Assembly: GCA_016234485.1 (NCBI GenBank)
Contig: JACRBL010000037.1
Span: 41,597 to 105,596, forward strand
Length of the DNA: 64,000 bases
Source: Chloroflexota bacterium
Lineage (GTDB): Bacteria > Chloroflexota > Anaerolineae > Anaerolineales > Villigracilaceae
Direction: 5' to 3'
Part shown: piece by piece, positions 20,265 through 63,825 of the stretch
Layout: every line of letters begins with the position of its first letter
Position numbering within the stretch: the stretch's first letter is position 1
Notes under the pieces: generated by a model
Told to the model about the DNA's origin: nothing
Databases searched by the model: none
The model's input: the letters and a program-made list of their open reading frames with translations, nothing else
Translations under genes and position numbers: made by a program

Positions 20265-20306
20265 TCTCTGTTCTCTATTCTCTATTCTCTGTTCTCTTCT
20301 CTCTTG
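20265..20306 (+). repeat. heptanucleotide tandem repeat (TCTCTNT)x6
   Basis: TCTCTGT TCTCTAT TCTCTAT TCTCTGT TCTCTTC TCTCTTG, immediately upstream of the TATAAT at 20312. Confidence 0.8.
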
Positions 20307-30843: not shown

Positions 30844-30875
30844 GAAGAGAGTAGAGAACAGAGAACAGAGAGCAG
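30844..30875 (-). repeat. heptanucleotide tandem repeat (TCTCTNN)x4, read on the minus strand
   Basis: Minus strand: CTGC TCTCTGT TCTCTGT TCTCTAC TCTCTTC. It ends ~23 nt upstream of the ATG at 30820. Confidence 0.75.
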
Positions 30876-49283: not shown

Positions 49284-49314
49284 CAGAGAGTAGAGATTAG
49301 AGAACAGAGAGTAG
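49284..49314 (-). repeat. heptanucleotide tandem repeat (TCTCTNN)x4, read on the minus strand
   Basis: Minus strand: CTAC TCTCTGT TCTCTAA TCTCTAC TCTCTGG. It ends 9 nt upstream of the ATG at 49274. Confidence 0.75.
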
Positions 49315-54233: not shown

Positions 54234-55808
54234 ATGAAATTAGAGTTCAAGATGAAAACTGCCATTTCGTTCAATGAAAACCTTTATTCGAGAATCTTTG
54301 AATCGGCCGCGGAGGGGGTAATTCTTAGCGATTTGGAATCCAACCTGGTTGTCGAGGCAAATCCTGCGGCATGTAAAATGCACGGCTATAGTTGTGAAGA
54401 ATTCATCGGGTTGAACGCGACGGCCTTCATTCACCCAAAAAGTTGGCAGGCGTTTCACGAATACATGCTATCGTTTCGATCGGGGAATGTGTTCGATGTA
54501 CGGTTACTACACCTGCGTCAGGATGGCTCGTCGTTCCATGCTGAATGGAGCGGGACAAAGTTCGACTATGAGGGTCGGCCGTGCTTACTGGGTGTGGTAC
54601 GGGATGTTACCAGGGGGGTTCAGGCGGAACAAAATCTTCATCAGCGCGTCGAAATCCGAAACCGAGAACAGGTCAAATTGCTCGAGATCTCGCACACCCT
54701 CGCGTCTACGATGGAATTTCAACCGGGGTTGATTCTGGATCAACTGCGCGAAATCGTTGAATATACAAACGGCGGATTATTCACACTGGAAGCCTCCACG
54801 CTTGTCACCCTGGCGATGCGCGGCGCCCCGGAATTGGAGCGATCATCGCCGTTCCGCATTCAACTGCGTGGGACGGATGCCCTGGCGACGCTGTTCAACG
54901 GGCACCGTCCGATCCGGATCGCGGATGTGGGGAGCGACAACCCGCAGGCAAACTTTCTGCGTTCACTCCTGGACGATGGAGCGGCTCAGTTGCTCGCAGG
55001 CATGCAGTCCTGGATGTGGGTTCCGCTTGCGGTGAAGAATCGGGTCATCGGCGGGCTGGGTGTTGCGCATGAGAATCGGAACTTTTTCACCCCCCATCAT
55101 TCCGACCTGGCCCTGAGTGTGGCCAACCAGGCCGCCATCACCATGATCAATGCGGAACTCTATGGACATGCGCAGGCCCTGGCAGTGTTGGAGGAGCGAC
55201 AACGTCTGGCGCGTAACCTGCATGATGCGGTCAACCAATCGCTTTTCTCCGCCGGGCTGATCGCCGAAGTCCTGCCGCGCCTGTGGGACCGGGACCAGGC
55301 TGAGGCGCGGCGATCCCTCGATGACTTGCGCAGGTTGACGCGAGGCGCCATGGCCGAGATGCGCGCCCTGCTCGCGGAATTGCGTCCGGACACCCTGATC
55401 GATACCGAATTGGGCGAACTCTTGATCTTGCTGGGCAATGCCTTCACCGGTCGAACCAATATCCCGGTGAAAGTGACCGTCACGGGCGAAGGCATCCTCC
55501 TGCCCGGTGAAACACAGGTATCCCTTTACCGCATCTGTCAGGAAGCGTTGACCAATATTGCCAAACACGCCCAAGCCAGCCGGGTGGAAGTTGAGATACA
55601 TTATATAAAGCCACCCGCGGAATTGGAACTGCACATCCGCGACAATGGCCATGGGTTTGTCACATCTGAGTTGTCTCCTTCCGGCCACTATGGATTAAAA
55701 ATGATGCGTGAACGCGCCGAAGCGGTGGGAGCCAATTTTTCAGTGATCAGCCATTCAGGCCGGGGTACGGAAATAACCGTTCGCCTGGCAAGACAGGAGA
55801 GCTTATGA
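54234..55808 (+). CDS. PAS-GAF sensor histidine kinase (HisKA_3 / NarL-partner class)
   Basis: 524 aa. PAS (SRIFESAAEGVILSD..), GAF-like middle region, H-box LARNLHDAVNQSLFSA, and an ATPase N/G boxes region (EALTNIAKHA, IRDNGHGF). Confidence 0.85.
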   Translation: MKLEFKMKTAISFNENLYSRIFESAAEGVILSDLESNLVVEANPAACKMHGYSCEEFIGLNATAFIHPKSWQAFHEYMLSFRSGNVFDVRLLHLRQDGSSFHAEWSGTKFDYEGRPCLLGVVRDVTRGVQAEQNLHQRVEIRNREQVKLLEISHTLASTMEFQPGLILDQLREIVEYTNGGLFTLEASTLVTLAMRGAPELERSSPFRIQLRGTDALATLFNGHRPIRIADVGSDNPQANFLRSLLDDGAAQLLAGMQSWMWVPLAVKNRVIGGLGVAHENRNFFTPHHSDLALSVANQAAITMINAELYGHAQALAVLEERQRLARNLHDAVNQSLFSAGLIAEVLPRLWDRDQAEARRSLDDLRRLTRGAMAEMRALLAELRPDTLIDTELGELLILLGNAFTGRTNIPVKVTVTGEGILLPGETQVSLYRICQEALTNIAKHAQASRVEVEIHYIKPPAELELHIRDNGHGFVTSELSPSGHYGLKMMRERAEAVGANFSVISHSGRGTEITVRLARQESL

Positions 55809-56452
55809 ATAAAGATTCCCCTCAACCCATTCGCGTGATGGTGGCTGACGACCATACGATGGTACGCCGCGGATTGGCAACTTTCCTGATGATTTTCGAT
55901 GATATGACCCTGGTTGGCGAGGCCGCAAACGGCGCCGAGGCCATCCAACTTTGTGCAGAAGTCCACCCAGATGTGATCCTGATGGATATGATCATGCCGG
56001 ATATGGACGGGATCGCCGCCACACGCGCCATCCGCCGGCAGTTTCCACAAGTGCAGATCATCGCGCTAACCAGTTTCAAAGAAGGGAATCTCGTCAAGAA
56101 GGCCCTGGAGGCGGGTGCGATCGGTTATCTGCTCAAGGACGTCATGGCGGATGAACTGGCCGCGGCAATTCGCGGGGCACACTCCGGCCGAGCGACACTC
56201 TCTCCCGATGTTGTGCAGGAGATGGTCCAGATCGCCAATCAACCGCAAATTCCCGGCCTTGATTTGACCGAGCGCGAGCGCGACGTGCTGGCCTTGATGG
56301 TGGAAGGCCTGAACAATACGCAGATCGCGGGAAGGTTGACCATCAGCCCAGCCACCGTAAAATCCCATGTCAGCAGCATTCTTTCCAAATTGATGGTGAC
56401 CAGTCGCACCGAAGCCGTGACCCTTGCATTGCGTCGCGGTCTCGTTGCCTAA
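55805..56452 (+). CDS. NarL/LuxR family response regulator
   Basis: 215 aa. Receiver IRVMVADDHTMVRRGL...ILMDMIMPDMDG. HTH is LTERERDVLALMVEGLNNTQIAGRLTISPATVKSHVSSILSKL. ATGA overlap with the kinase gene. Confidence 0.9.
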   Translation: MNKDSPQPIRVMVADDHTMVRRGLATFLMIFDDMTLVGEAANGAEAIQLCAEVHPDVILMDMIMPDMDGIAATRAIRRQFPQVQIIALTSFKEGNLVKKALEAGAIGYLLKDVMADELAAAIRGAHSGRATLSPDVVQEMVQIANQPQIPGLDLTERERDVLALMVEGLNNTQIAGRLTISPATVKSHVSSILSKLMVTSRTEAVTLALRRGLVA

Positions 56453-56565
56453 TAGCAACACAGGAAGATACCCGAGACGCTCTTTGGATAAATGTTCGGA
56501 GGCATTTTGGTCTCTTTTGCATTTGGATGAAAAAAGTCTGATTACTGGATATTTCTTTGCTTCCA

Positions 56566-56943
56566 GTCGTTCAAAGCCTGCTACGTGTTGACCAAAGGTT
56601 CCTTCGAGTTGACCAAAGGTTCCTTCGTGTCGCTCAAAGGTTCCTTCGTGTTGACCAAAGGTTCCTTCGAGTTGACCAAAGGTTCCTTCGAGTTGACCAA
56701 AGGTTCCTTCGTGTCGCTCAAAGTTTCCTTCGAGTTGACCAAAGGTTCCTTCGTGTCGCTCAAAGGTTCCTTCGAGTTGACCAAAGGTTCCTTCGTGTCG
56801 CTCAAAGGTTCCTTCGTGTTGACCAAAGGTTCCTTCGTGTTGACCAAAGGTTCCTTCGTGTCGCTCAAAGGTTCCTTGGCGTTGACCAATGGTTCCTTGG
56901 TGTTGACCAAAGCCTCCTTGATGTCCTCAAAGGCTGCTCCATT
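56566..56943. repeat. tandem array of ~18 x 21-bp units (two alternating variants)
   Basis: The A unit is GTTGACCAAAGGTTCCTTCG(A/T) and the B unit is GTCGCTCAAAGGTTCCTTCG(A/T). Order from 56587 is A A B A A A B A B A B A A B, with degenerate copies at both ends. There are no spacers. The array ends 39 bp before the ATG at 56982. Confidence 0.9.
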
Positions 56944-56969
56944 TGGGGAATGTACGGGGGCGCTTGAGG

Positions 56970-56981
56970 TAAAATCTGAAC
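56970..56981 (+). promoter_or_regulatory. -10-like TAAAAT 6 nt upstream of the ATG of the MmeI-family gene (leaderless-type)
   Basis: GAGGTAAAATCTGAACATG. No Shine-Dalgarno. Confidence 0.4.
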
Positions 56982-59792
56982 ATGACACTAACACCGCAGG
57001 AATTTGTCAGCAAGTGGAAGCGCGTAACTTCGCGCGAGAAGCAATCGTATCAGGAACATTTCATTGACGTCTGTCATCTGGCGGGACATCAGACGCCGAA
57101 CGATTACGACCCCACTGGCACGCGCTTTGCCTTTGAGATGGGCGCGGCCAAGACCAGCGGCGGACAGGGTTGGGCGGATGTCGCCAAACTGGGTTTCTTT
57201 GGCTGGGAATATAAAGCCAAAGATGCCGACCTCGATAAAGCCTACGAACAACTTTTACGCTATCGGGATGCGCTTCAAAACCCGCCCATCCTGATCGTTT
57301 CGGATATCAACAAGATCGTCATCCGCACAAATTATACAAACCTGCCCACACGGACCTTTGTCCTGAAGCTCGACGACTTGTTGAAGCCTGAGAGCATCAA
57401 ACTCCTGAAGACCGTTTTCAACAACCCTGAGCGCCTCAAACCGCAAGAGACGGTCGAGAGCGTGACGAGAGAAGCGGCGGCGCATTTCTCCAGGTTGGCC
57501 GACAACCTCCGCAGGTACGGAAATGAGCCGCAGGAGAGCGCGCATTTTCTCATCCGCCTGTTGTTCTGCCTGTTCGCGGAAGACATCGGTTTACTGCCTG
57601 AAAATCTATTCCCGCAATTGCTGGAGCAAACGCGGCGCAACTCGAAGGATTTTTCGGAGGTCCTGCGGCAACTCTTCCGCGCCATGAATACGGGCGGATT
57701 TTTCGGCAGGGACAAGATTCTGCATTTCAACGGCGGACTCTTTGACAGCGATTACGTTCTGCAACTCGACAGCGCAGATATGGACATCATCGCGGGCATC
57801 GACGCGCTGGATTGGTCGGCCATCGAACCTTCGATCTTCGGCACGCTCTTCGAGCGCGGGCTGGACCCCGCCAAGCGTTCGCAACTCGGCGCGCATTATA
57901 CGAGCCGCGATGACATTCTTCTGATCGTCGAGCCTGTGTTGATGAAGCCGTTGCGGGATGAATTCGAAGCGTTGAAAGTTGAAGGTCAAAGGTTGAAGGC
58001 CGAAGGGAAGAAGAGCGCGCGCAAGACGATCAGCGATATGCTGCGCGGTTTTGCGGATAAGATCGCGGCGGTGAAAGTGTTAGACCCTGCCTGTGGGAGC
58101 GGGAACTTTTTGTATGTGGCTTTGCGTTTGCTGTTGGATTTGCAGAATGAAGTGATTGCTTTTGCAGATGAGATGGGCGTGGGGCGTTTCTTCCCCAGCG
58201 TGACGCCGCAACAGGTATTGGGCATCGAGACGAACGAGTATGCCCACGAACTGGCGCAGATCACGATCTATATTGGTTATATTCAATGGCTGGTGAATAA
58301 CGGCTATGGCTTTCCCAGTGAGCCGATCTTGAAGCCGATGAAGAACATTGTGCGGATGGATGCGGTGCTGGCGTATGACGAGAACGGTAAGCCCAAAGAA
58401 CCTGAGTGGATGAATGCCGATGTGATTGTCGGTAATCCGCCGTTTTTGGGTGGCAAACGAATACGCTCCGAATTGGGAGATGAATATGTAAACAAACTCT
58501 TTGAACTTTACGATGGGCGTGTGCCACGTGAAGCGGATTTGGTTTGTTATTGGTTTGAAAAAGCACGTTCAATGATTGAACAAGGCAAAGTAAAACGTGC
58601 TGGTTTACTTGCCACAAATTCAATTCGTGGTGGGGCGAACAGAAAAGTTTTGGAAAAAATCAAAGGTACTGGTGATATTTTTTGGGCGCAGTCTGACCAT
58701 GAGTGGATTTTAGATGGCGCAGCAGTAAATGTTTCAATGATTGGATTTGATAATGGACAAGAAAAGACTCGAGATTTGGATAATAACCATGTAAATGCAA
58801 TTCATTCTGATCTAACTTCAGAAACGAACATAACTATAGCATCAAGACTTATTGAGAATGCAAATATCTCTTTTATGGCAGATACTAAAGGTGGGTCTTT
58901 TGATATTACAAACGAACAAGCACAGGAAATATTAAAGTCTACTTCTAATCCAAACGGAAAGCCCAATAGTGATGTCATAAAAAAATGGGTTAATGGCTCT
59001 GATATAGTGCAGAACTCTCGTAACATGTGGATTATTGACTTTGGTGTCGATATGCCAATTGAACAGGCATCTCAATATGAAGCTCCTTTTGAATACGTAA
59101 AAAAACATGTTTTTCCAGAACGGAAAAATAACAAGCGGCAGTCTTATCGTGAAAAATGGTGGATACATGCTGAGCCACGCCCTGAAATGCGGAGGCAGTT
59201 TATTGGAAAGAAAAGATTTATCGCGACCGTATCAGTCGCTAAGCATAGAATATTTACTTGGTTGGGCACAGAAACTATTCCAGATCATGCACTAATTATT
59301 TTTACGCGCGAAGATGATTATTTCTTCGGAATTTTACATTCAAGGCCACATGAAGTATGGGCATTGAAACAAGGTACATCCCTTGAAGATCGCCCACGCT
59401 ACACACCTACCACCACCTTTGAAACCTTTCCCTTCCCGTGGGCGCCAGGGAAAGAGCCGAAGGGTGATCCAAGAGTAAAAGCCATCGGTCAAGCCGCGCA
59501 GGAACTGGTCGAGCAACGTGACCGTTGGCTCAACGCAACCCCCACCGCCCTATCGGGCGCCTCCCCCAAATCCGACGAACCCCAGTCGGATTTGGGGGAG
59601 GCTGGGAGGGGGGCAAAACGAACGCTGACGAACCTGTATAACCAACGTCCCACCTGGCTGGATCTCGCCCATAAGCGGTTGGATGAGGCTGTCTTCACAG
59701 CGTACGGCTGGCAGAGCGACCTGTCTGACGAGGAGATTTTGGAGCGGTTGTTGAAGTTGAACTTGGAGAGAGGCAGGCAGGATGGGGGATGA
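56982..59792 (+). CDS. MmeI-family Type IIL-like restriction-modification enzyme (N-terminal PD-ExK-like nuclease domain fused to an N6-adenine DNA methyltransferase and TRD)
   Basis: 936 aa. The N-terminus QEFVSKWKRVTSREKQSYQEHFID...GWADVAKLGFFGWEYKAKD gives D66...E76-Y-K78. Motif I is VLDPACGSGNFL and motif IV is VGNPPFLGG. The C-terminal TLTNLYNQRPTWLDLAHKRLDEAVFTAYGW is typical of this family. Confidence 0.8.
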   Translation: MTLTPQEFVSKWKRVTSREKQSYQEHFIDVCHLAGHQTPNDYDPTGTRFAFEMGAAKTSGGQGWADVAKLGFFGWEYKAKDADLDKAYEQLLRYRDALQNPPILIVSDINKIVIRTNYTNLPTRTFVLKLDDLLKPESIKLLKTVFNNPERLKPQETVESVTREAAAHFSRLADNLRRYGNEPQESAHFLIRLLFCLFAEDIGLLPENLFPQLLEQTRRNSKDFSEVLRQLFRAMNTGGFFGRDKILHFNGGLFDSDYVLQLDSADMDIIAGIDALDWSAIEPSIFGTLFERGLDPAKRSQLGAHYTSRDDILLIVEPVLMKPLRDEFEALKVEGQRLKAEGKKSARKTISDMLRGFADKIAAVKVLDPACGSGNFLYVALRLLLDLQNEVIAFADEMGVGRFFPSVTPQQVLGIETNEYAHELAQITIYIGYIQWLVNNGYGFPSEPILKPMKNIVRMDAVLAYDENGKPKEPEWMNADVIVGNPPFLGGKRIRSELGDEYVNKLFELYDGRVPREADLVCYWFEKARSMIEQGKVKRAGLLATNSIRGGANRKVLEKIKGTGDIFWAQSDHEWILDGAAVNVSMIGFDNGQEKTRDLDNNHVNAIHSDLTSETNITIASRLIENANISFMADTKGGSFDITNEQAQEILKSTSNPNGKPNSDVIKKWVNGSDIVQNSRNMWIIDFGVDMPIEQASQYEAPFEYVKKHVFPERKNNKRQSYREKWWIHAEPRPEMRRQFIGKKRFIATVSVAKHRIFTWLGTETIPDHALIIFTREDDYFFGILHSRPHEVWALKQGTSLEDRPRYTPTTTFETFPFPWAPGKEPKGDPRVKAIGQAAQELVEQRDRWLNATPTALSGASPKSDEPQSDLGEAGRGAKRTLTNLYNQRPTWLDLAHKRLDEAVFTAYGWQSDLSDEEILERLLKLNLERGRQDGG

Positions 59793-59886
59793 GTCCACGT
59801 TCCAAGCCAGGTTTGCCAAACTGCTGGGCGGGCTGGATTTGTTTTATATGAAAACTGAATAACGACCTATGCGCGTGGCACAACCC

Positions 59887-59949
59887 GTCTCCCCCAAGCG
59901 GCGGAGACAAACACTCCCCGGCCGATGGATGCGGCTGGGGAGTGTTTAG
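59887..59949 (+). repeat. ~60-bp double-hairpin element, copy A (terminator-like)
   Basis: GTCTCCCCCAAGCGGCGGAGAC AAACACTCCCCGGCCGATGGATGCGGCTGGGGAGTGTTT. Related copies are at 61224-61286 and 62758-62822. Confidence 0.75.
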
Positions 59950-60083
59950 TTTACGATTAATGTTGGGCGCGCCCATCCGCGTCGATCGTGGACGCATTCA
60001 TGAAGATTGCCAATTCGATCTGAGACTACGCCTACCCAGGCAACAGAAGCAAGCGCTCCTCAACTTCACAACAGGAGAACATT

Positions 60084-60443
60084 ATGCAAATCCAAATTCA
60101 TACCGATCACAACATTGAAGGTCACGAAGCGCTGATCGCCCAGGTCACTGACGTAGTGGAGAGCGTTCTAAGCCGATGGAGCGAACATATCGCCCATGTG
60201 GAAGTCCACCTGAGCGATGAAAACAGCGATAAGAAGGGCGGGCATGATGCCATGCGCTGTTTGATGGAAGCCCGTCTCGAAGGCCGCCACGCCATCGCGG
60301 TCACACATCAGTCAACAAACCTGGATCAAGCGGTTGAAGAAGCAGCAGATAAGTTGGCCAATTTGATCGAGAGCTCCCTTGACCGGCAACATGATCTGAA
60401 TCTTCGCAGGACAGACCCACCTCTGCCTGAAAAGTTGAAATAG
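60084..60443 (+). CDS. hpf: HPF/RaiA family ribosome-associated (hibernation) protein, short form
   Basis: 119 aa. MQIQIHTDHNIEGHEALIAQVTDVVESVLSRW...VEVHLSDEN...A.DKL has S30EA-like topology. RBS CAGGAG. Confidence 0.65.
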   Translation: MQIQIHTDHNIEGHEALIAQVTDVVESVLSRWSEHIAHVEVHLSDENSDKKGGHDAMRCLMEARLEGRHAIAVTHQSTNLDQAVEEAADKLANLIESSLDRQHDLNLRRTDPPLPEKLK

Positions 60444-60567
60444 TCGCCAATGGGATTTTTCTGGCTCAAAATGGGAATCGCAAATAATCCCGTTGTGGGT
60501 TGTCTTATCAATACCTGTTCGCCTTTGACGGATCTCTCGCAGATAGCCTCAGAAAAAAGGATATAAA

Positions 60568-61206
60568 ATGAAACTTGAACAAAAACATGCAAAAACGTTT
60601 GGTGTAATTTCCGTGATGGTACTGTTAACACTTACCGTTGCGGCTTGTGGCGGCGCCGCATTTGTGGCCCCGGTAAACGATGGGATGATTTCCATCTGTC
60701 ACGCCACCGGCGACCCGGCCAACCCGTACAATGCGATCGCGCTTGACTTTAATGAATTGGCCGCGCACGCCAACCACGTGGACGATCTCGTCCCGGCCCC
60801 GGCAAACGGCTGTCCCCAGGTGGTAGCAGAAACGGGCTCCAATAATGGGAGGATCACCATCTGTCATGCAACGGGTAGTTTAACCAACCCCTACAACGAG
60901 ATCACGATCGCTTTCAACGGGCTGAACGGGCACAGCAATCATGAGGGCGACGTCATCCCGGCTCCCGAGGGCGGCTGTCCTTCTGTGACCGCGACTCCGG
61001 CAATCACTGCAACTCATACCATGACTGCAACGCCTACGCCGACAGTAACGCCAGGAGGAACTGGCATGATCACCATCTGCCACGCCACTGGCAGCGCCAA
61101 AAATCCCTATGTCCTGATCACGGTCAGTGTTAATGGTTTAAATGGCCATGGCGATCACGCGGGCGATATCATTCCGGTTCCGGATGACGGTTGTCCTACA
61201 CAGTAA
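60568..61206 (+). CDS. lipoprotein with three ~44-aa Cys/His-rich repeats (unassigned family)
   Basis: Signal plus lipobox LTLTVAAC. The repeat motif I(S/T)ICHATG..(A/T/K)NPY..I......L..H..H..D.(V/I)P.P..GCP occurs three times (aa 40-83, 96-138, 167-210; nt 60685-60816, 60853-60981, 61066-61197). A Thr/Pro linker precedes repeat 3. Confidence 0.7.
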   Translation: MKLEQKHAKTFGVISVMVLLTLTVAACGGAAFVAPVNDGMISICHATGDPANPYNAIALDFNELAAHANHVDDLVPAPANGCPQVVAETGSNNGRITICHATGSLTNPYNEITIAFNGLNGHSNHEGDVIPAPEGGCPSVTATPAITATHTMTATPTPTVTPGGTGMITICHATGSAKNPYVLITVSVNGLNGHGDHAGDIIPVPDDGCPTQ

Positions 61207-61223
61207 TTGCCTTGCTCATCCGA

Positions 61224-61286
61224 ATCCCCCCCAAGTGGCGGAGACAAATACTCCCCAGCCGATGGATGCGGTTGGGGAGTATTTTT
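61224..61286 (+). repeat. ~60-bp hairpin element, copy B (terminator-like)
   Basis: ATCCCCCCCAAGTGGCGGAGAC AAATACTCCCCAGCCGATGGATGCGGTTGGGGAGTATTTTTT. Confidence 0.75.
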
Positions 61287-61481
61287 TATAAAATCAAGGG
61301 GAGATATCTTTTGAGCGTTTCCCCTGTGTTACATAAAAACAAGAAGCCGACACTTGCAGTTCTGCGAGAGCTGCAATTAAGGAAAAACACGTTTCATAAA
61401 AGGAAAGAAGGATACGCAACGGCGAAAAAAGATGATCCTTGCACTTTTTTTTTTGATTACTGCAAACCGGAAGGCATATGG

Positions 61482-62474
61482 ATGATGAAAAAAAACATAA
61501 AAACCTCAGAACTTCGTTACCGCCGTTTATTCGAAGCCGCGCAGGATGGGATTTTATTGTTGGATGCTGAAACGGGAATGATCACCGACGTCAATCCATT
61601 CCTGATCAAGTTATTGGGATATTCGCGCGAGGAATTTGTAAAAAGGAAGCTCTGGGAAGTTGGCGCGTTCAAAGATATAGAAGCCAGCCAGAAAGCTTTT
61701 GAGGCTTTGCAGAAGAACGAATATGTTCGTTATGAAGACTTGCCCCTTCGGGCAAAGGACGGCCGTCTGGTCCAGGTGGAATTCGTCAGTAATGTATACC
61801 TGGTGGAAGGCGAAAAGGTCATCCAATGCAATATCCGCGACATCACCGAACGACAACAAGCGCAGGATGCCCTGCGTAAAAGCGAAGCGCTCCTGCGCGA
61901 ACTGTCGGTTCGTGATCACCTGACCGGTTTATTCAATCGTCGTTATATGGAAGAAACCCTGGAGCGCGAATTACTACGGGCTTCTCGTAAACAACTTTCC
62001 CTCGGCGTCATTATGATTGACTTGGATAATTTCAAGCGCGTGAACGATGTTCACGGCCACGCCGCCGGCGATGACGTTTTGCGTGAATTGGGCGCTTTGC
62101 TACTTGGACATTTCCGCGGCGAGGATGTTGCCTGCCGTTATGGCGGTGACGAATTTGTTATCGTTCTGCCGGATGTCTCGAAGATTGTGACACAGGCACG
62201 CGCCGAACGTTTGTGTGAGTATACCCGGCACGTCAACGTTCAGTTCGAGGGGCATATCATTGTCCCGGTGGCGCTTTCCGTTGGCATTGCCACTTTTCCT
62301 GAGAACGGCTCCACGAGCGCCGAAATCTTGAAAGCGGCGGACGTGGCGCTATATCGCGCCAAACAGGCAGGGCGCGGCCGAGTAGTCCTGGCAGAAAACT
62401 GGTCCCCTGGGGATGGGTGTTCCGCCCTGGATTACGGCGTATCAGTAAATTCTGTTTTCGAGAAGGATTCATAA
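61482..62474 (+). CDS. PAS domain-containing diguanylate cyclase (GGDEF)
   Basis: Trimmed to the ATG at 61482 (MMKKNIKTSELRYRRLFEAAQDGILLLD...). Active site is RYGGDEF, with an RxxD I-site (RGED) five residues upstream. Confidence 0.85.
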   Translation: MMKKNIKTSELRYRRLFEAAQDGILLLDAETGMITDVNPFLIKLLGYSREEFVKRKLWEVGAFKDIEASQKAFEALQKNEYVRYEDLPLRAKDGRLVQVEFVSNVYLVEGEKVIQCNIRDITERQQAQDALRKSEALLRELSVRDHLTGLFNRRYMEETLERELLRASRKQLSLGVIMIDLDNFKRVNDVHGHAAGDDVLRELGALLLGHFRGEDVACRYGGDEFVIVLPDVSKIVTQARAERLCEYTRHVNVQFEGHIIVPVALSVGIATFPENGSTSAEILKAADVALYRAKQAGRGRVVLAENWSPGDGCSALDYGVSVNSVFEKDS

Positions 62475-62728
62475 TGACTGAAAACACCAAAGTTGTTACG
62501 GTTCATGGTTGTATCGCATGCGCCAGGTTATTCGATATCCTGGCAGTCTATGCCCCGAATGGCAGTCTGGTGGGTTGTAAGGTAACGAACAGCCCCGACG
62601 GCCACATCGTTCCCGATCAACGAACCCCGCTGGTTGCATGTAATACCCACACAGCGGCAGAAGTCGAGGCCGCGTATAAACGATGGCGGTCCAGGAATGG
62701 CAAAGAAGCGCACCATCAAGAAGAATAA
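62474..62728 (+). CDS. hypothetical small Cys-containing protein, translationally coupled to the GGDEF gene
   Basis: 84 aa (MTENTKVVTVHGCIACARLFDILAVYAPNGSLVGCKVTN...LVACNTHTAAEVEAAYKRW). TAATG overlap with the upstream stop. No family recognised. Confidence 0.5.
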   Translation: MTENTKVVTVHGCIACARLFDILAVYAPNGSLVGCKVTNSPDGHIVPDQRTPLVACNTHTAAEVEAAYKRWRSRNGKEAHHQEE

Positions 62729-63778: not shown

Positions 63779-63808
63779 AATTGAATTGAATTGAATTGAA
63801 TTGAATTG
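63779..63808. repeat. pentanucleotide microsatellite (AATTG)x6
   Basis: Perfect AATTG x6 between the kinase stop (63754) and the RBS/TTG start of the next gene (63826). Confidence 0.9.
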
Positions 63809-63825
63809 AGTGGAAGGAGAATAAG

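What the first reader, a model, noticed from the sequence alone, without database searches (positions are those of the whole stretch)
56566..56943. Array of 18 tandem 21-bp units abutting the promoter of the restriction-modification gene
There are fourteen near-perfect and about four degenerate 21-bp units with no spacers. Two variants, GTTGACCAAAGGTTCCTTCGW and GTCGCTCAAAGGTTCCTTCGW, are interleaved as A A B A A A B A B A B A A B. A 21-bp period equals two helical turns, so every unit presents the same DNA face, and A units contain a TTGACC -35-like hexamer. The array ends 39 bp before the ATG and 27 bp before a TAAAAT box of the MmeI-family gene, and it begins ~110 bp after a NarL-type response-regulator gene. 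Because the period is a multiple of 3 and has no stop codons, three overlapping ORFs appear in the track (VDQRFLR, LTKGSFE and, on the minus strand, KEPLVN(S/T)/KEPLSDT). Hypotheses: an iteron- or centromere-like protein-binding array; a copy-number-variable (phase-variable) control region for the R-M gene; or, less likely, a heptad-repeat protein. It is not a CRISPR.
Basis: seen in the sequence. Interest (0 to 1): 0.65.

Follow-up and report, generated by a model that had tools for sequence, protein, structure and literature searches.

The report
Minisatellite upstream of inserted restriction gene
A real, head-to-tail array of eighteen 21-bp units sits in front of a restriction-modification gene that was inserted as one block into an uncultured Anaerolineales genome; it is most likely a non-coding, length-variable minisatellite that may tune that gene's promoter, not a protein, a CRISPR or a plasmid origin.

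Summary
K-mer depths in two public groundwater runs match the assembled structure, so it is not an assembly artefact.

The array does not belong to the neighbouring NarL-type regulator. It lies at the 5' end of a ~3.36-kb block (leader, array, MmeI-family gene, tail) inserted between the regulator's stop codon and that operon's own terminator. Close relatives show the empty site, or a deletion that removed the array and gene together.

The closest MmeI homologue (74% identity) has three 22-bp units of weakly similar sequence upstream and the same TAAAAT-6 nt-ATG start. A period of 22 and a core present in both orientations argue against coding. No protein family matches the heptad ORFs.

Strains differ only by reshuffling of existing unit types. 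The best-matching reads imply one 42-bp A-B module fewer than the window.

Best reading: a recombinationally active, non-coding VNTR in the control region of a mobile Type IIL gene, possibly a same-face binding array. The binding protein and any effect on expression are unproven. Iteron or centromere membership is not supported. Interest is moderate to low.

The parts
56491..56565 (+). Left end ('leader') of the inserted block, between the regulator's stop region and the first repeat unit. It contains a weak hairpin plus T-run at 56498-56515.
   Evidence: The empty-site relative L091 follows the window up to about 56490 and then continues with window sequence from about 59850.
56566..56586 (.). 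Degenerate first unit (GTCGTTCAAAGCCTGCTACGT, 13/21). It shares the CTGCT variant with the last unit. It carries the TAG that ends the minus-strand open frame.
56587..56880 (.). Fourteen near-perfect 21-bp units, order AABAAABABABAAB. A is GTTGACC+CAAAGGTTCCTTCG-type and B is GTCGCTC-type. The constant 14-nt core CAAAGGTTCCTTCG has short dyad symmetry (AAGG-TT-CCTT). The variable part is the 7-nt W-GTYGMY segment.
   Evidence: k-mer depth support
56881..56943 (.). Three decaying units. The last one has a 1-bp deletion.
56944..56981 (+). Unique spacer holding the -10-like box GGTAAAAT (TAAAAT at 56970-56975), 6 nt before the ATG. This is a leaderless-type promoter layout. No -35 match is present.
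   Evidence: Read directly from the sequence. The same 'GGTAAAAT + 6 nt + ATG' is found in the closest homologue L094, and 'TATAAT + 7 nt + ATG' in L014, L015, L018 and L035. The consensus promoter scan finds nothing here.
56982..59792 (+). MmeI-family (Type IIL) restriction-modification gene, 936 aa.
   Evidence: Pfam MmeI_N, MmeI_hel, MmeI_Mtase and MmeI_TRD above the curated cut-off; MmeI_C at 21.8 bits, below its cut-off of 27. PDB 5HR4 MmeI E=1e-51. Best homologues are 74% identical or less, all Anaerolineales/Chloroflexota MAGs.
59793..59849 (+). 3' tail of the inserted block.
   Evidence: Alignment with L091 and L090
59908..59947 (+). Strong terminator hairpin of the kinase-regulator operon, now displaced to the far side of the inserted block.
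   Evidence: MFE -43.5 kcal/mol for the 81-nt stretch 59880-59960 that holds this hairpin, z -6.1. The same hairpin directly follows the regulator gene in L091, L092 and L093.
56581..56994 (-). Open frame (S/T)KEPL(VN/SD)x16, 137 codons. Probably not a gene.
   Evidence: Its GTG start lies inside the MmeI coding region. A word-indexed search gave no homologue. An exhaustive HMMER search returned only heterogeneous repeat ORFs. The sequence is not in the protein collection.

Best explanation
The array is a non-coding minisatellite (VNTR) at the 5' end of a ~3.36-kb MmeI-family restriction-modification block. That block was inserted between the NarL-type regulator gene and its terminator.

The array grew in place by slippage or unequal recombination of a 21-22-bp upstream element. 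The interior units are kept alike by continuing gain and loss, while the edge units decay. The same process reshuffles A and B units and changes unit number between strains.

Inferred, not shown: the units act at the DNA level on the MmeI promoter that starts 27 bp downstream. Because the period is two helical turns, every constant 14-bp core faces the same side. The array could therefore load a still unidentified dimeric DNA-binding or nucleoid protein cooperatively, or form a bent upstream region. Unit number would then tune expression of the restriction enzyme rather than switch it. Read-through from the kinase-regulator operon would also have to cross the array.
For: Shown:
- The array is real and its structure fits the reads.
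- It is part of the MmeI indel block. L091 shows the empty site. L090 has a deletion from about 56527 to about 59637 that removed the array and 885 codons together. L092 and L093 also have the regulator directly followed by the terminator.
- Related strains carry the same layout, with the regulator's 3' end running into the array start (X6/X7, 96.5% identity) and the array end running into the MmeI start (X21/X22).
- The array differences that the read tables list between metagenomes are swaps of existing unit types: W at 56691 and 56775, and B to A at 56862/64/65.
- In run X1 the variant unit 6 is absent and the path A-t-B-a-A has multiplicity 0.97 instead of 2. This implies one 42-bp module fewer than in the window.
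- The edge units (-1 and 16) share the CTGCT variant and similarity falls off towards the right end, as expected for in-place expansion.

Against coding, for a DNA-level role:
- The closest homologue L094 has three 22-bp units at the same relative place. Period 22 is not a multiple of 3, and the 14-nt core of unit 1 is the exact reverse complement of that of unit 2. The units are weakly similar to the window's (CCAAA..TTCCTT.GAG; 54 of 2000 shuffles score as well). L094 also has the same GGTAAAAT-6 nt-ATG start.
- Another homologue, L100, has 21 bp x 5.9 containing GTCAACC, 220-340 bp upstream.
- The part that is constant between A and B units is the 14-nt core with dyad symmetry.
Against: - No binding protein is identified, and the block encodes only the enzyme.
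- The core motif occurs nowhere else in the 64-kb window, so there is no sign of a regulon.
- The sequence similarity to the L094 units is statistically weak.
- Other homologues with 22-bp arrays (L017, L021, L095) turn out to have them next to an HU-HIG gene rather than next to MmeI. Normalised to intergenic DNA, arrays are not clearly enriched upstream of MmeI genes.
- The promoter-proximal units are the decayed ones, so a change in the number of interior units would not alter the sequence from -40 to -80.
- No transcript data cover the array.
- A neutral minisatellite explains all the structural facts equally well.
Confidence: 0.5

Rival explanations
1. Neutral minisatellite. The array is a by-product of slippage in the non-essential upstream DNA of a horizontally acquired gene. 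It has no effect on expression and will eventually be lost.
For: All structural facts fit this reading: homogeneous interior, decayed edges, reshuffled unit types and a probable 42-bp length difference. The array strand is strongly self-complementary between units (MFE -151 against -119 +/- 5.7 kcal/mol, z -5.7), which favours slippage. No binding protein and no other copy of the motif was found. The array was lost together with the gene in L090.
Against: Long perfect tandem arrays are deletion-prone, yet the same unit types are found in more than 20 runs, spread over more than 15 studies and several habitats. This is biased, because the search needs identical 31-mers. A tandem 21-22-bp element also stands upstream of the closest homologue and of L100.
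Confidence: 0.3
2. Self-site array. The A units (GTTGAC, which reads GTYRAC on both strands) carry the recognition sequence of the adjacent MmeI-family enzyme. Methylation or binding by the enzyme would then feed back on its own promoter or buffer its activity.
For: Aligned to MmeI (5HR4), the window enzyme keeps E806, R808 and R810, and has A at 774, H at 773 and probably V at 751. By the rules of Morgan & Luyten 2009 (PMC2731914) this predicts NN(Y/C)RAC. GTTGAC fits on both strands and B units do not. TGAC-containing repeats recur upstream of many homologues (TGACAG is 5.6-fold enriched).
Against: The predicted pattern carries little information: about 0.7 matches per 21-bp unit are expected by chance. 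The alignment in the recognition domain is only about 25% identical. GTTGAC is not avoided elsewhere in the window (47 observed, 37 expected). The L094 units lack YRAC, and that enzyme differs at the R808 position. The TGACAG palindromes are better explained as REP-like elements of an adjacent Y1 transposase.
Confidence: 0.08
3. Binding array for the adjacent NarL/GerE-type response regulator, placing the restriction gene under the two-component system.
For: The two are close (113 nt). GerE-type dimers bind short inverted repeats (own knowledge), and each unit has AAGG-TT-CCTT. Read-through from the regulator operon into the block is possible because the operon's terminator now lies behind the MmeI gene.
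Against: The regulator and kinase are conserved core genes at 75-93% identity in many Anaerolineales that have no array. The array arrived with the MmeI block. L094 and L100 have their arrays without such a regulator next door.
Confidence: 0.06
4. A real gene for a heptad-repeat protein, (S/T)KEPL(VN/SD)x16, on the minus strand.
For: The frame is open for 137 codons. In the decaying units 13-15 the three third-position changes are synonymous in this frame (my reading). KEPL-type heptads are encoded by similar DNA in unrelated contigs L002 and L006.
Against: - The start codon lies inside the MmeI coding region and no promoter-like site is found on that strand.
- The last unit's 1-bp deletion puts the N-terminal part out of the unit frame.
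- There is no homologous family: the 1257 HMMER hits are unrelated repeat ORFs.
- The corresponding units in L094 have period 22 and occur in both orientations.
- Three synonymous changes are too few to be significant.
Confidence: 0.04
5. Iteron origin or partition centromere of an integrated plasmid remnant.
For: Contiguous 21-bp direct repeats on one helical face resemble R6K-type iterons and pSK41-type parC (own knowledge).
Against: There is no rep, par or conjugation gene in the block or among the ORFs scanned next to it. There is no similarity to 72,556 plasmids or 50,697 phages. The flanks are conserved chromosomal genes present in related MAGs.
Confidence: 0.02

Closest known systems
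Bacterial VNTR/minisatellite loci (e.g. MLVA markers, MIRU-type intergenic repeats; own knowledge)
   Same: Head-to-tail units of 10-100 bp without spacers. The interior is homogeneous and the edges are decayed. The location is intergenic. Strains differ by whole units.
   Different: This array sits in the upstream region of a horizontally inserted Type IIL restriction-modification gene. Its period equals two helical turns. Copy-number variation is inferred only from k-mer depth, not from spanning reads.
Promoter-associated repeat tracts of contingency genes (H. influenzae hmw 7-bp repeats, N. meningitidis nadA TAAA tract; own knowledge)
   Same: A repeat tract upstream of the core promoter whose unit number can grade expression.
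   Different: The unit here is 21 bp rather than 1-7 bp. No effect on expression has been shown. The tract is not between -35 and -10 or inside the ORF, so no on/off switching is expected.
Iterons of theta-replicating plasmids (R6K gamma origin 7 x 22 bp, pSC101, F, P1; own knowledge)
   Same: Contiguous direct repeats of 21-22 bp that present one face of the helix.
   Different: There is no initiator gene, no AT-rich unwinding element was identified, there is no plasmid context, and there are many more copies.
Type II partition centromere parC (pSK41 20-bp repeats, R1 11-bp repeats; own knowledge)
   Same: A dense array of tandem repeats immediately upstream of a promoter, which in those systems also serves as the operator.
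   Different: There is no parM or parR. The downstream gene is a restriction-modification enzyme.
Restriction-modification genes controlled through sites in their own promoter (C-protein operators; methylation-sensitive promoters such as CfrBI; own knowledge)
   Same: Cis elements in front of a restriction gene that could delay or limit its expression.
   Different: There is no C gene and no C-box. Whether the unit holds the enzyme's target is unknown.

Membership tests
VNTR / minisatellite | Head-to-tail units of at least 10 bp without spacers | tested here: met
   Period 21, 18 units, every start-to-start spacing is 21
VNTR / minisatellite | Interior units homogenised, terminal units decayed | tested here: met
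   14 interior units score 16-21/21 with only one private substitution. The edge units score 13/21, 18/21, 16/21 and 8/21 in register, the last because of a 1-bp deletion
VNTR / minisatellite | Unit number or unit order differs between strains | tested here: inconclusive
   Unit order differs: B to A at unit 13 in X21/X22, and W swaps in X5, X24 and X25. Depth in X1 implies one 42-bp module fewer than the window. No read spans the array and no long-read run was found
Iteron replication origin | Adjacent gene for an initiator (Rep) that binds the repeats | tested here: not met
   The scanned neighbours are a kinase, a regulator, MmeI, an S30AE-like protein and a GGDEF protein; the 212-aa ORF at 60568-61206 has no Pfam match. 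There is no plasmid match
Iteron replication origin | Direct repeats of 17-22 bp in helical phase | tested here: met
   Period 21
Partition centromere (parC/parS) | Located next to a parA/parM-parB/parR operon | tested here: not met
   The ORFs scanned next to the array are not par genes
Phase-variable simple-sequence contingency locus | Repeat tract within the ORF or between -35 and -10, so that unit number changes frame or spacer | tested here: not met
   The array ends 27 bp before the -10-like box and 39 bp before the ATG. The MmeI frame has a TGA in every A unit
CRISPR array | Repeats separated by unique spacers of similar length | tested here: not met
   The units abut one another and there are no spacers
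Heptad-repeat protein gene | Homologues, or a coding-type constraint (period a multiple of 3 and fixed orientation) in related arrays | tested here: not met
   No family was found. The units in L094 have period 22 and their core occurs in both orientations
Heptad-repeat protein gene | Evidence of translation | not testable with these tools
   No proteome or ribosome profiling is available. The metatranscriptome contigs do not cover the array
C-protein controlled restriction-modification unit | Small HTH controller gene and C-box palindromes before the restriction gene | tested here: not met
   The block holds only MmeI and there is no palindrome in 56944-56981
REP/REPIN elements | Short hairpin-forming palindrome, dispersed, with a Y1 (RAYT) transposase | tested here: not met
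   The window array has no inverted repeats. REP-like palindromes plus a Y1_Tnp gene are found around other MmeI homologues but not here

The most novel reading that the evidence does not exclude
The upstream repeat arrays of this Anaerolineales MmeI clade (window 21 bp x 18, L094 22 bp x 3, L100 21 bp x 6) would be a so far undescribed control device for single-chain Type IIL restriction-modification enzymes. It would be a same-face array of sites bound or methylated by the enzyme itself or by a host nucleoid protein. Its readily changing unit number would set how much restriction activity a cell makes, working as a copy-number rheostat rather than an on/off phase switch.
Probability: 0.12. 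Interest if true: 0.65.

Novelty: new member of a known kind. Interest (0 to 1): 0.33.

Why it matters
If the array only reflects slippage, it is a useful strain marker for an uncultured groundwater and activated-sludge Anaerolineales lineage, and a warning that its three long open frames should not be annotated as genes.

If unit number tunes the promoter, it would be a new way to set the level of a single-chain restriction-modification enzyme. Such an enzyme has no separate methylase or controller protein to protect a new host, and its regulation is essentially unstudied.

The comparison also dates the event. The restriction gene and the array arrived as one insertion between a conserved regulator gene and its terminator, and in one relative they were lost again together.

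Tried and rejected
- Exact scans for a pair of units found nothing in genome contigs or viral contigs. The metagenome scan returned only unrelated hits.
- Rfam and tRNA scans of the window found nothing.
- Pfam on the three repeat ORFs gave only sub-threshold noise.
- The word-indexed homology search with the minus ORF found nothing.
- The exhaustive HMMER search gave 1257 hits, but the eight inspected are unrelated tandem-repeat ORFs such as REPLVHA, KQPLVDF and TEEPMVA.
- An exact look-up of the three ORFs showed they are not in the collection.
- Plasmid and phage BLAST gave no match.
- Two literature searches found nothing on tandem repeats upstream of MmeI genes.
- A search for Nanopore runs found none. 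The metatranscriptome runs hold near-identical MmeI fragments but nothing over the array.
- Hexamer avoidance, used as a proxy for the enzyme's target, showed none for any unit-derived hexamer.
- I first read the 22-bp arrays of L017 and L021 as MmeI-linked footprints. I then found that they follow an HU-HIG gene also in L095, where MmeI is 2.3 kb away, so I dropped them as support.
- I first read the GTGACAGTCAC palindromes as operators. They are REP-like elements next to a Y1 transposase.
- The TTGACC hexamers do not work as -35 boxes because no -10 lies at the right spacing.
- A DNA curvature calculation was not attempted, because I could not reproduce the wedge parameters reliably.

Full report
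**Observation.** The array is exactly as described. In 21-bp register from 56566 there is:
- one degenerate unit;
- fourteen near-perfect units (56587-56880) in the order AABAAABABABAAB;
- two mildly decayed units;
- a last unit with a 1-bp deletion, ending at 56943.

Tandem Repeats Finder gives period 21, 16 copies and score 483, far above anything else in the window. The unit occurs nowhere else in the 64 kb and never in shuffles. There are no inverted repeats and no spacers. The flanking genes are a PAS-GAF-HisKA_3 kinase, a Response_reg+GerE regulator (55805-56452) and a 936-aa protein with four MmeI Pfam domains above the curated cut-off, the C-terminal one scoring below it (56982-59792). 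That protein matches the solved MmeI structure at E=1e-51.

**Is it an assembly artefact?** Public groundwater metagenome runs X1-X4 hold the locus. Their 31-mer unitigs break in the array, as expected, but every unitig fits the window without mismatch. I compared unitig depth divided by flank depth with the k-mer multiplicity predicted from the window. The pairs are 2.32/2.67, 0.83/1, 0.97/1, 3.54/4.04, 1.92/2.0 and 1.07/1.19 in X1. In X2 they are 3.97/3.45, 2.24/2.11, 0.84/1, 1.03/1, 4.05/4.05 and 1.52/1.19. The assembled structure is therefore essentially right.

There is one exception. The only private substitution in the interior (G>T at 56724, unit 6) is carried by no contig of X1, X3, X4 or X34. 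In X1 the path A-t-B-a-A has multiplicity about 1, whereas it would be 2 if unit 6 were an ordinary B. The simplest reading is that the X1 population has one A-B module (42 bp) fewer than the window. The alternative is that the window assembly carries an extra module with an error in it.

**Where the array belongs.** Orthologues of the regulator were found at 93%, 93% and 85% identity and their contigs were read.
- In L091 the sequence follows the window to about 56490 and then continues with window sequence from about 59850. This is an empty site.
- In L090 it follows the window to about 56526 and jumps to about 59638, inside the 3' end of the MmeI gene. The remnant has an in-frame TAG. This is a deletion that removed the array and 885 codons together.
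- In L092 and L093 the regulator is directly followed by a strong terminator hairpin.

That same hairpin follows the regulator in L091. In the window it lies behind the MmeI gene (59908-59947; -43.5 kcal/mol for the 81-nt stretch that holds it). So a block of about 3.36 kb (75-nt leader, array, 38-nt spacer, MmeI gene, 57-nt tail) was inserted between the regulator's stop codon and the operon's terminator. I saw no target duplication or terminal inverted repeats.

The array is thus part of the restriction-gene block, not of the regulator locus. Strains about 96% identical, from activated sludge and wastewater, keep the same layout. One contig runs from the regulator's 3' end to the first unit (X6/X7). 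Another runs from unit 11 through the array end into the MmeI start (X21/X22).

**Variation.** The differences inside the array that the read tables list between metagenomes are swaps between existing unit types. The W position changes at 56691 and 56775. Three simultaneous changes (56862, 56864, 56865) turn B unit 13 into an A unit. Four further differences in the X21 contig lie near its ends and their positions are not given. Together with the probable 42-bp difference above, the near-identity of the interior units and the decayed edge units, this is the signature of ongoing unit turnover. Units -1 and 16 share a CTGCT variant, which also fits in-place expansion. Identical 31-mers of the array occur in more than 20 runs from groundwater, activated sludge, wastewater, soil, sediment, wetland and root samples. 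That search can only find identical words, so it says little about constraint.

**Coding or not.** Three frames are open. The MmeI frame has a TGA in each A unit, so the array is not an N-terminal extension of the enzyme.

The minus frame (S/T)KEPL(VN/SD) looked the best candidate, because three third-position changes in units 13-15 are synonymous in it. Several facts argue against it:
- Three changes are too few to be significant.
- The ORF's start lies inside the MmeI coding region.
- No promoter-like site is found on that strand.
- The 1-bp deletion in the last unit shifts its N-terminal part out of the unit frame.
- The word-indexed search found nothing.
- The exhaustive search returned only heterogeneous repeat ORFs.
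- None of the ORFs is in the protein collection.

The strongest argument comes from L094, the locus of the closest MmeI homologue (74% identity). At 130-190 bp upstream it has three tandem 22-bp units: CAAA-CCTCTCAAGGAAGG-ATTC, CAAA-CCTTCCTTGAGAGG-ATTC and CAAA-CCTTCCAAGGGAGG-ATTT. A period of 22 cannot be coding, and the 14-nt core of unit 1 is the exact reverse complement of the core of unit 2. These units resemble the window's (CCAAA GG TTCCTT CGAG against CCAAA CC TTCCTT GAG). The similarity is only weakly significant, with 54 of 2000 shuffles scoring as well. L094 also shares the start layout GGTAAAAT + 6 nt + ATG. A further homologue, L100 (70%), has 21 bp x 5.9 (GAAAAGTCAACCGGGGAATTT) 220-340 bp upstream.

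**Promoter.** TAAAAT (56970-56975) lies 6 nt before the ATG. Homologues show TATAAT + 7 nt + ATG (L014, L015, L018, L035) or GGTAAAAT + 6 nt + ATG (L094), so a leaderless-type promoter is likely. There is no -35 match. None of the TTGACC hexamers is 16-18 bp from a -10-like box, and the consensus scan finds no promoter in the array. The array ends at about -39, so it occupies the place where upstream activator, repressor or UP-type contacts would be made. The nearest units, however, are the decayed ones. Because the operon's terminator now lies behind the block, transcripts from the kinase-regulator operon may also run through the array. As a single strand the array is markedly self-complementary between units (z -5.7). 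This could matter for RNA structure or simply promote slippage.

**Leads that did not hold.**
- The 22-bp arrays upstream of MmeI in L017 and L021 are conserved islands in otherwise unalignable DNA. The same unit occurs in L095 next to an HU-HIG gene 2.3 kb away from MmeI, and in L017 and L021 it directly follows the HU-HIG gene. These arrays are therefore linked to HU-HIG.
- The 30-35-bp palindromes GTGACAGTCAC..GTGACTGTCAC, found upstream of, inside and behind many homologues, are REP-like elements associated with a Y1 (IS200-like) transposase gene just downstream.
- Using the specificity rules of Morgan & Luyten 2009 (PMC2731914) on the alignment to MmeI, the enzyme is predicted to read NN(Y/C)RAC. 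GTTGAC in the A unit fits on both strands. The pattern is too loose to mean much, and GTTGAC is not avoided in the window.
- There is no plasmid or phage similarity, no Rfam hit, and no literature on such arrays before MmeI genes.

**Verdict.** What is shown: the array is a real, non-coding-type tandem array that belongs to an inserted MmeI block and is being reshuffled between strains. What is inferred: it acts on the MmeI promoter as a same-face binding or bending array whose unit number tunes expression. That remains unproven, and a neutral minisatellite is nearly as likely. Membership in the iteron, centromere, CRISPR or classical phase-variation classes fails on defining features. The finding is a new member of the VNTR kind in an unusual place, of moderate to low interest unless the functional tests come out positive.

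Noticed in passing
L014, L015, L018, L022, L023, L025, L031, L035 (e.g. L035:5931, 7384, 8575, 8786, 9442; transposase gene L035:8838-9434): A 30-35-bp perfect palindrome (AAGTGACAGTCAC-N7-GTGACTGTCACTT) occurs 4-6 times in and around MmeI homologues. It is found over the TATAAT box, in frame in two variable loops of the enzyme (reading VTVTSEVTVTS), at the stop codon, and behind the next gene. That next gene is a Y1_Tnp (IS200/RAYT-like) transposase. This looks like a REP/REPIN system with copies embedded in frame in a restriction gene. The window's MmeI gene has none.
   Followed up: partly
L017:5220-5854, L021:5284-5868, L095:160-682, L019:5258-5836: An HU-HIG family DNA-binding gene sits next to several MmeI homologues. 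Tandem 21-22-bp units (GAAAACATTTAGAAGTTTTCG type) stand at its 3' end, with 5, 3 and 2.2 copies. In L019 a different 21-bp array x 4.6 precedes a weak HU-HIG-like gene. Between L017 and L021 the units are conserved while the surrounding DNA is not.
   Followed up: partly
L100:1160-1282: A 21-bp x 5.9 array (GAAAAGTCAACCGGGGAATTT) lies 220-340 bp upstream of a 70%-identical MmeI homologue. It is flanked by two copies of the palindrome GACCTGACAGGTTT..AAACCTGTCAGGTC.
   Followed up: partly
300 bp upstream of 30 MmeI homologue loci (L010-L100): TGACAG and its complement are 5.6-fold enriched upstream of the genes (3.2 per kb against 0.58 per kb). TGACAGGTTT recurs in L017, L094 and L100. Neither is present upstream of the window's gene.
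   Followed up: partly
window 56491-62470: Compared with L092 and L093, where the regulator is followed at once by the small gene homologous to window 62474-62728 and a DnaJ gene, the whole stretch looks like a variable island. It holds the MmeI block, an S30AE-like gene (60084-60443), a 212-aa repeat protein and a PAS-GGDEF gene. GC content drops to 0.44 at 58-59 kb.
   Followed up: partly
L090:2395-2560: A relative carries only the last ~50 codons of the MmeI gene, with an in-frame TAG. This is a decayed remnant left after a ~3.1-kb deletion.
   Followed up: yes
window 56724: The G>T substitution that makes unit 6 unique is not supported by any contig of four public runs from the matching study. 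It is either a strain difference or an assembly error.
   Followed up: yes
window 20265-20304, 30853-30875, 49285-49314; also 22640, 28905, 63779-63809: Short tandem heptamer runs of one family (AGAGAAC / AGAGAAT / AGAGAGT, 3-5 copies) occur at three separate places. There are also other 7-bp runs and AATTG x 6. This is reminiscent of dispersed short tandem heptamers known from cyanobacteria (own knowledge).
   Followed up: no
window 60568-61206: A 212-aa predicted lipoprotein-like ORF has three internal repeats (ITICHATGx..NPY..I....NGLxGHxxHxxD.IP.P..GCP) and no Pfam match.
   Followed up: no
L092:2392-2583 vs L093:1113-1367: The same small gene differs by an in-frame 63-bp (21-codon) indel between two metagenomes (63 aa against 84 aa).
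   Followed up: no
L002:5565-6065, L006 (minus strand 1735-1776): Unrelated contigs encode KEPL-type heptad or dodecad repeats using the same AAGGAACCTTT words. These were picked up only because of the search pattern.
   Followed up: partly
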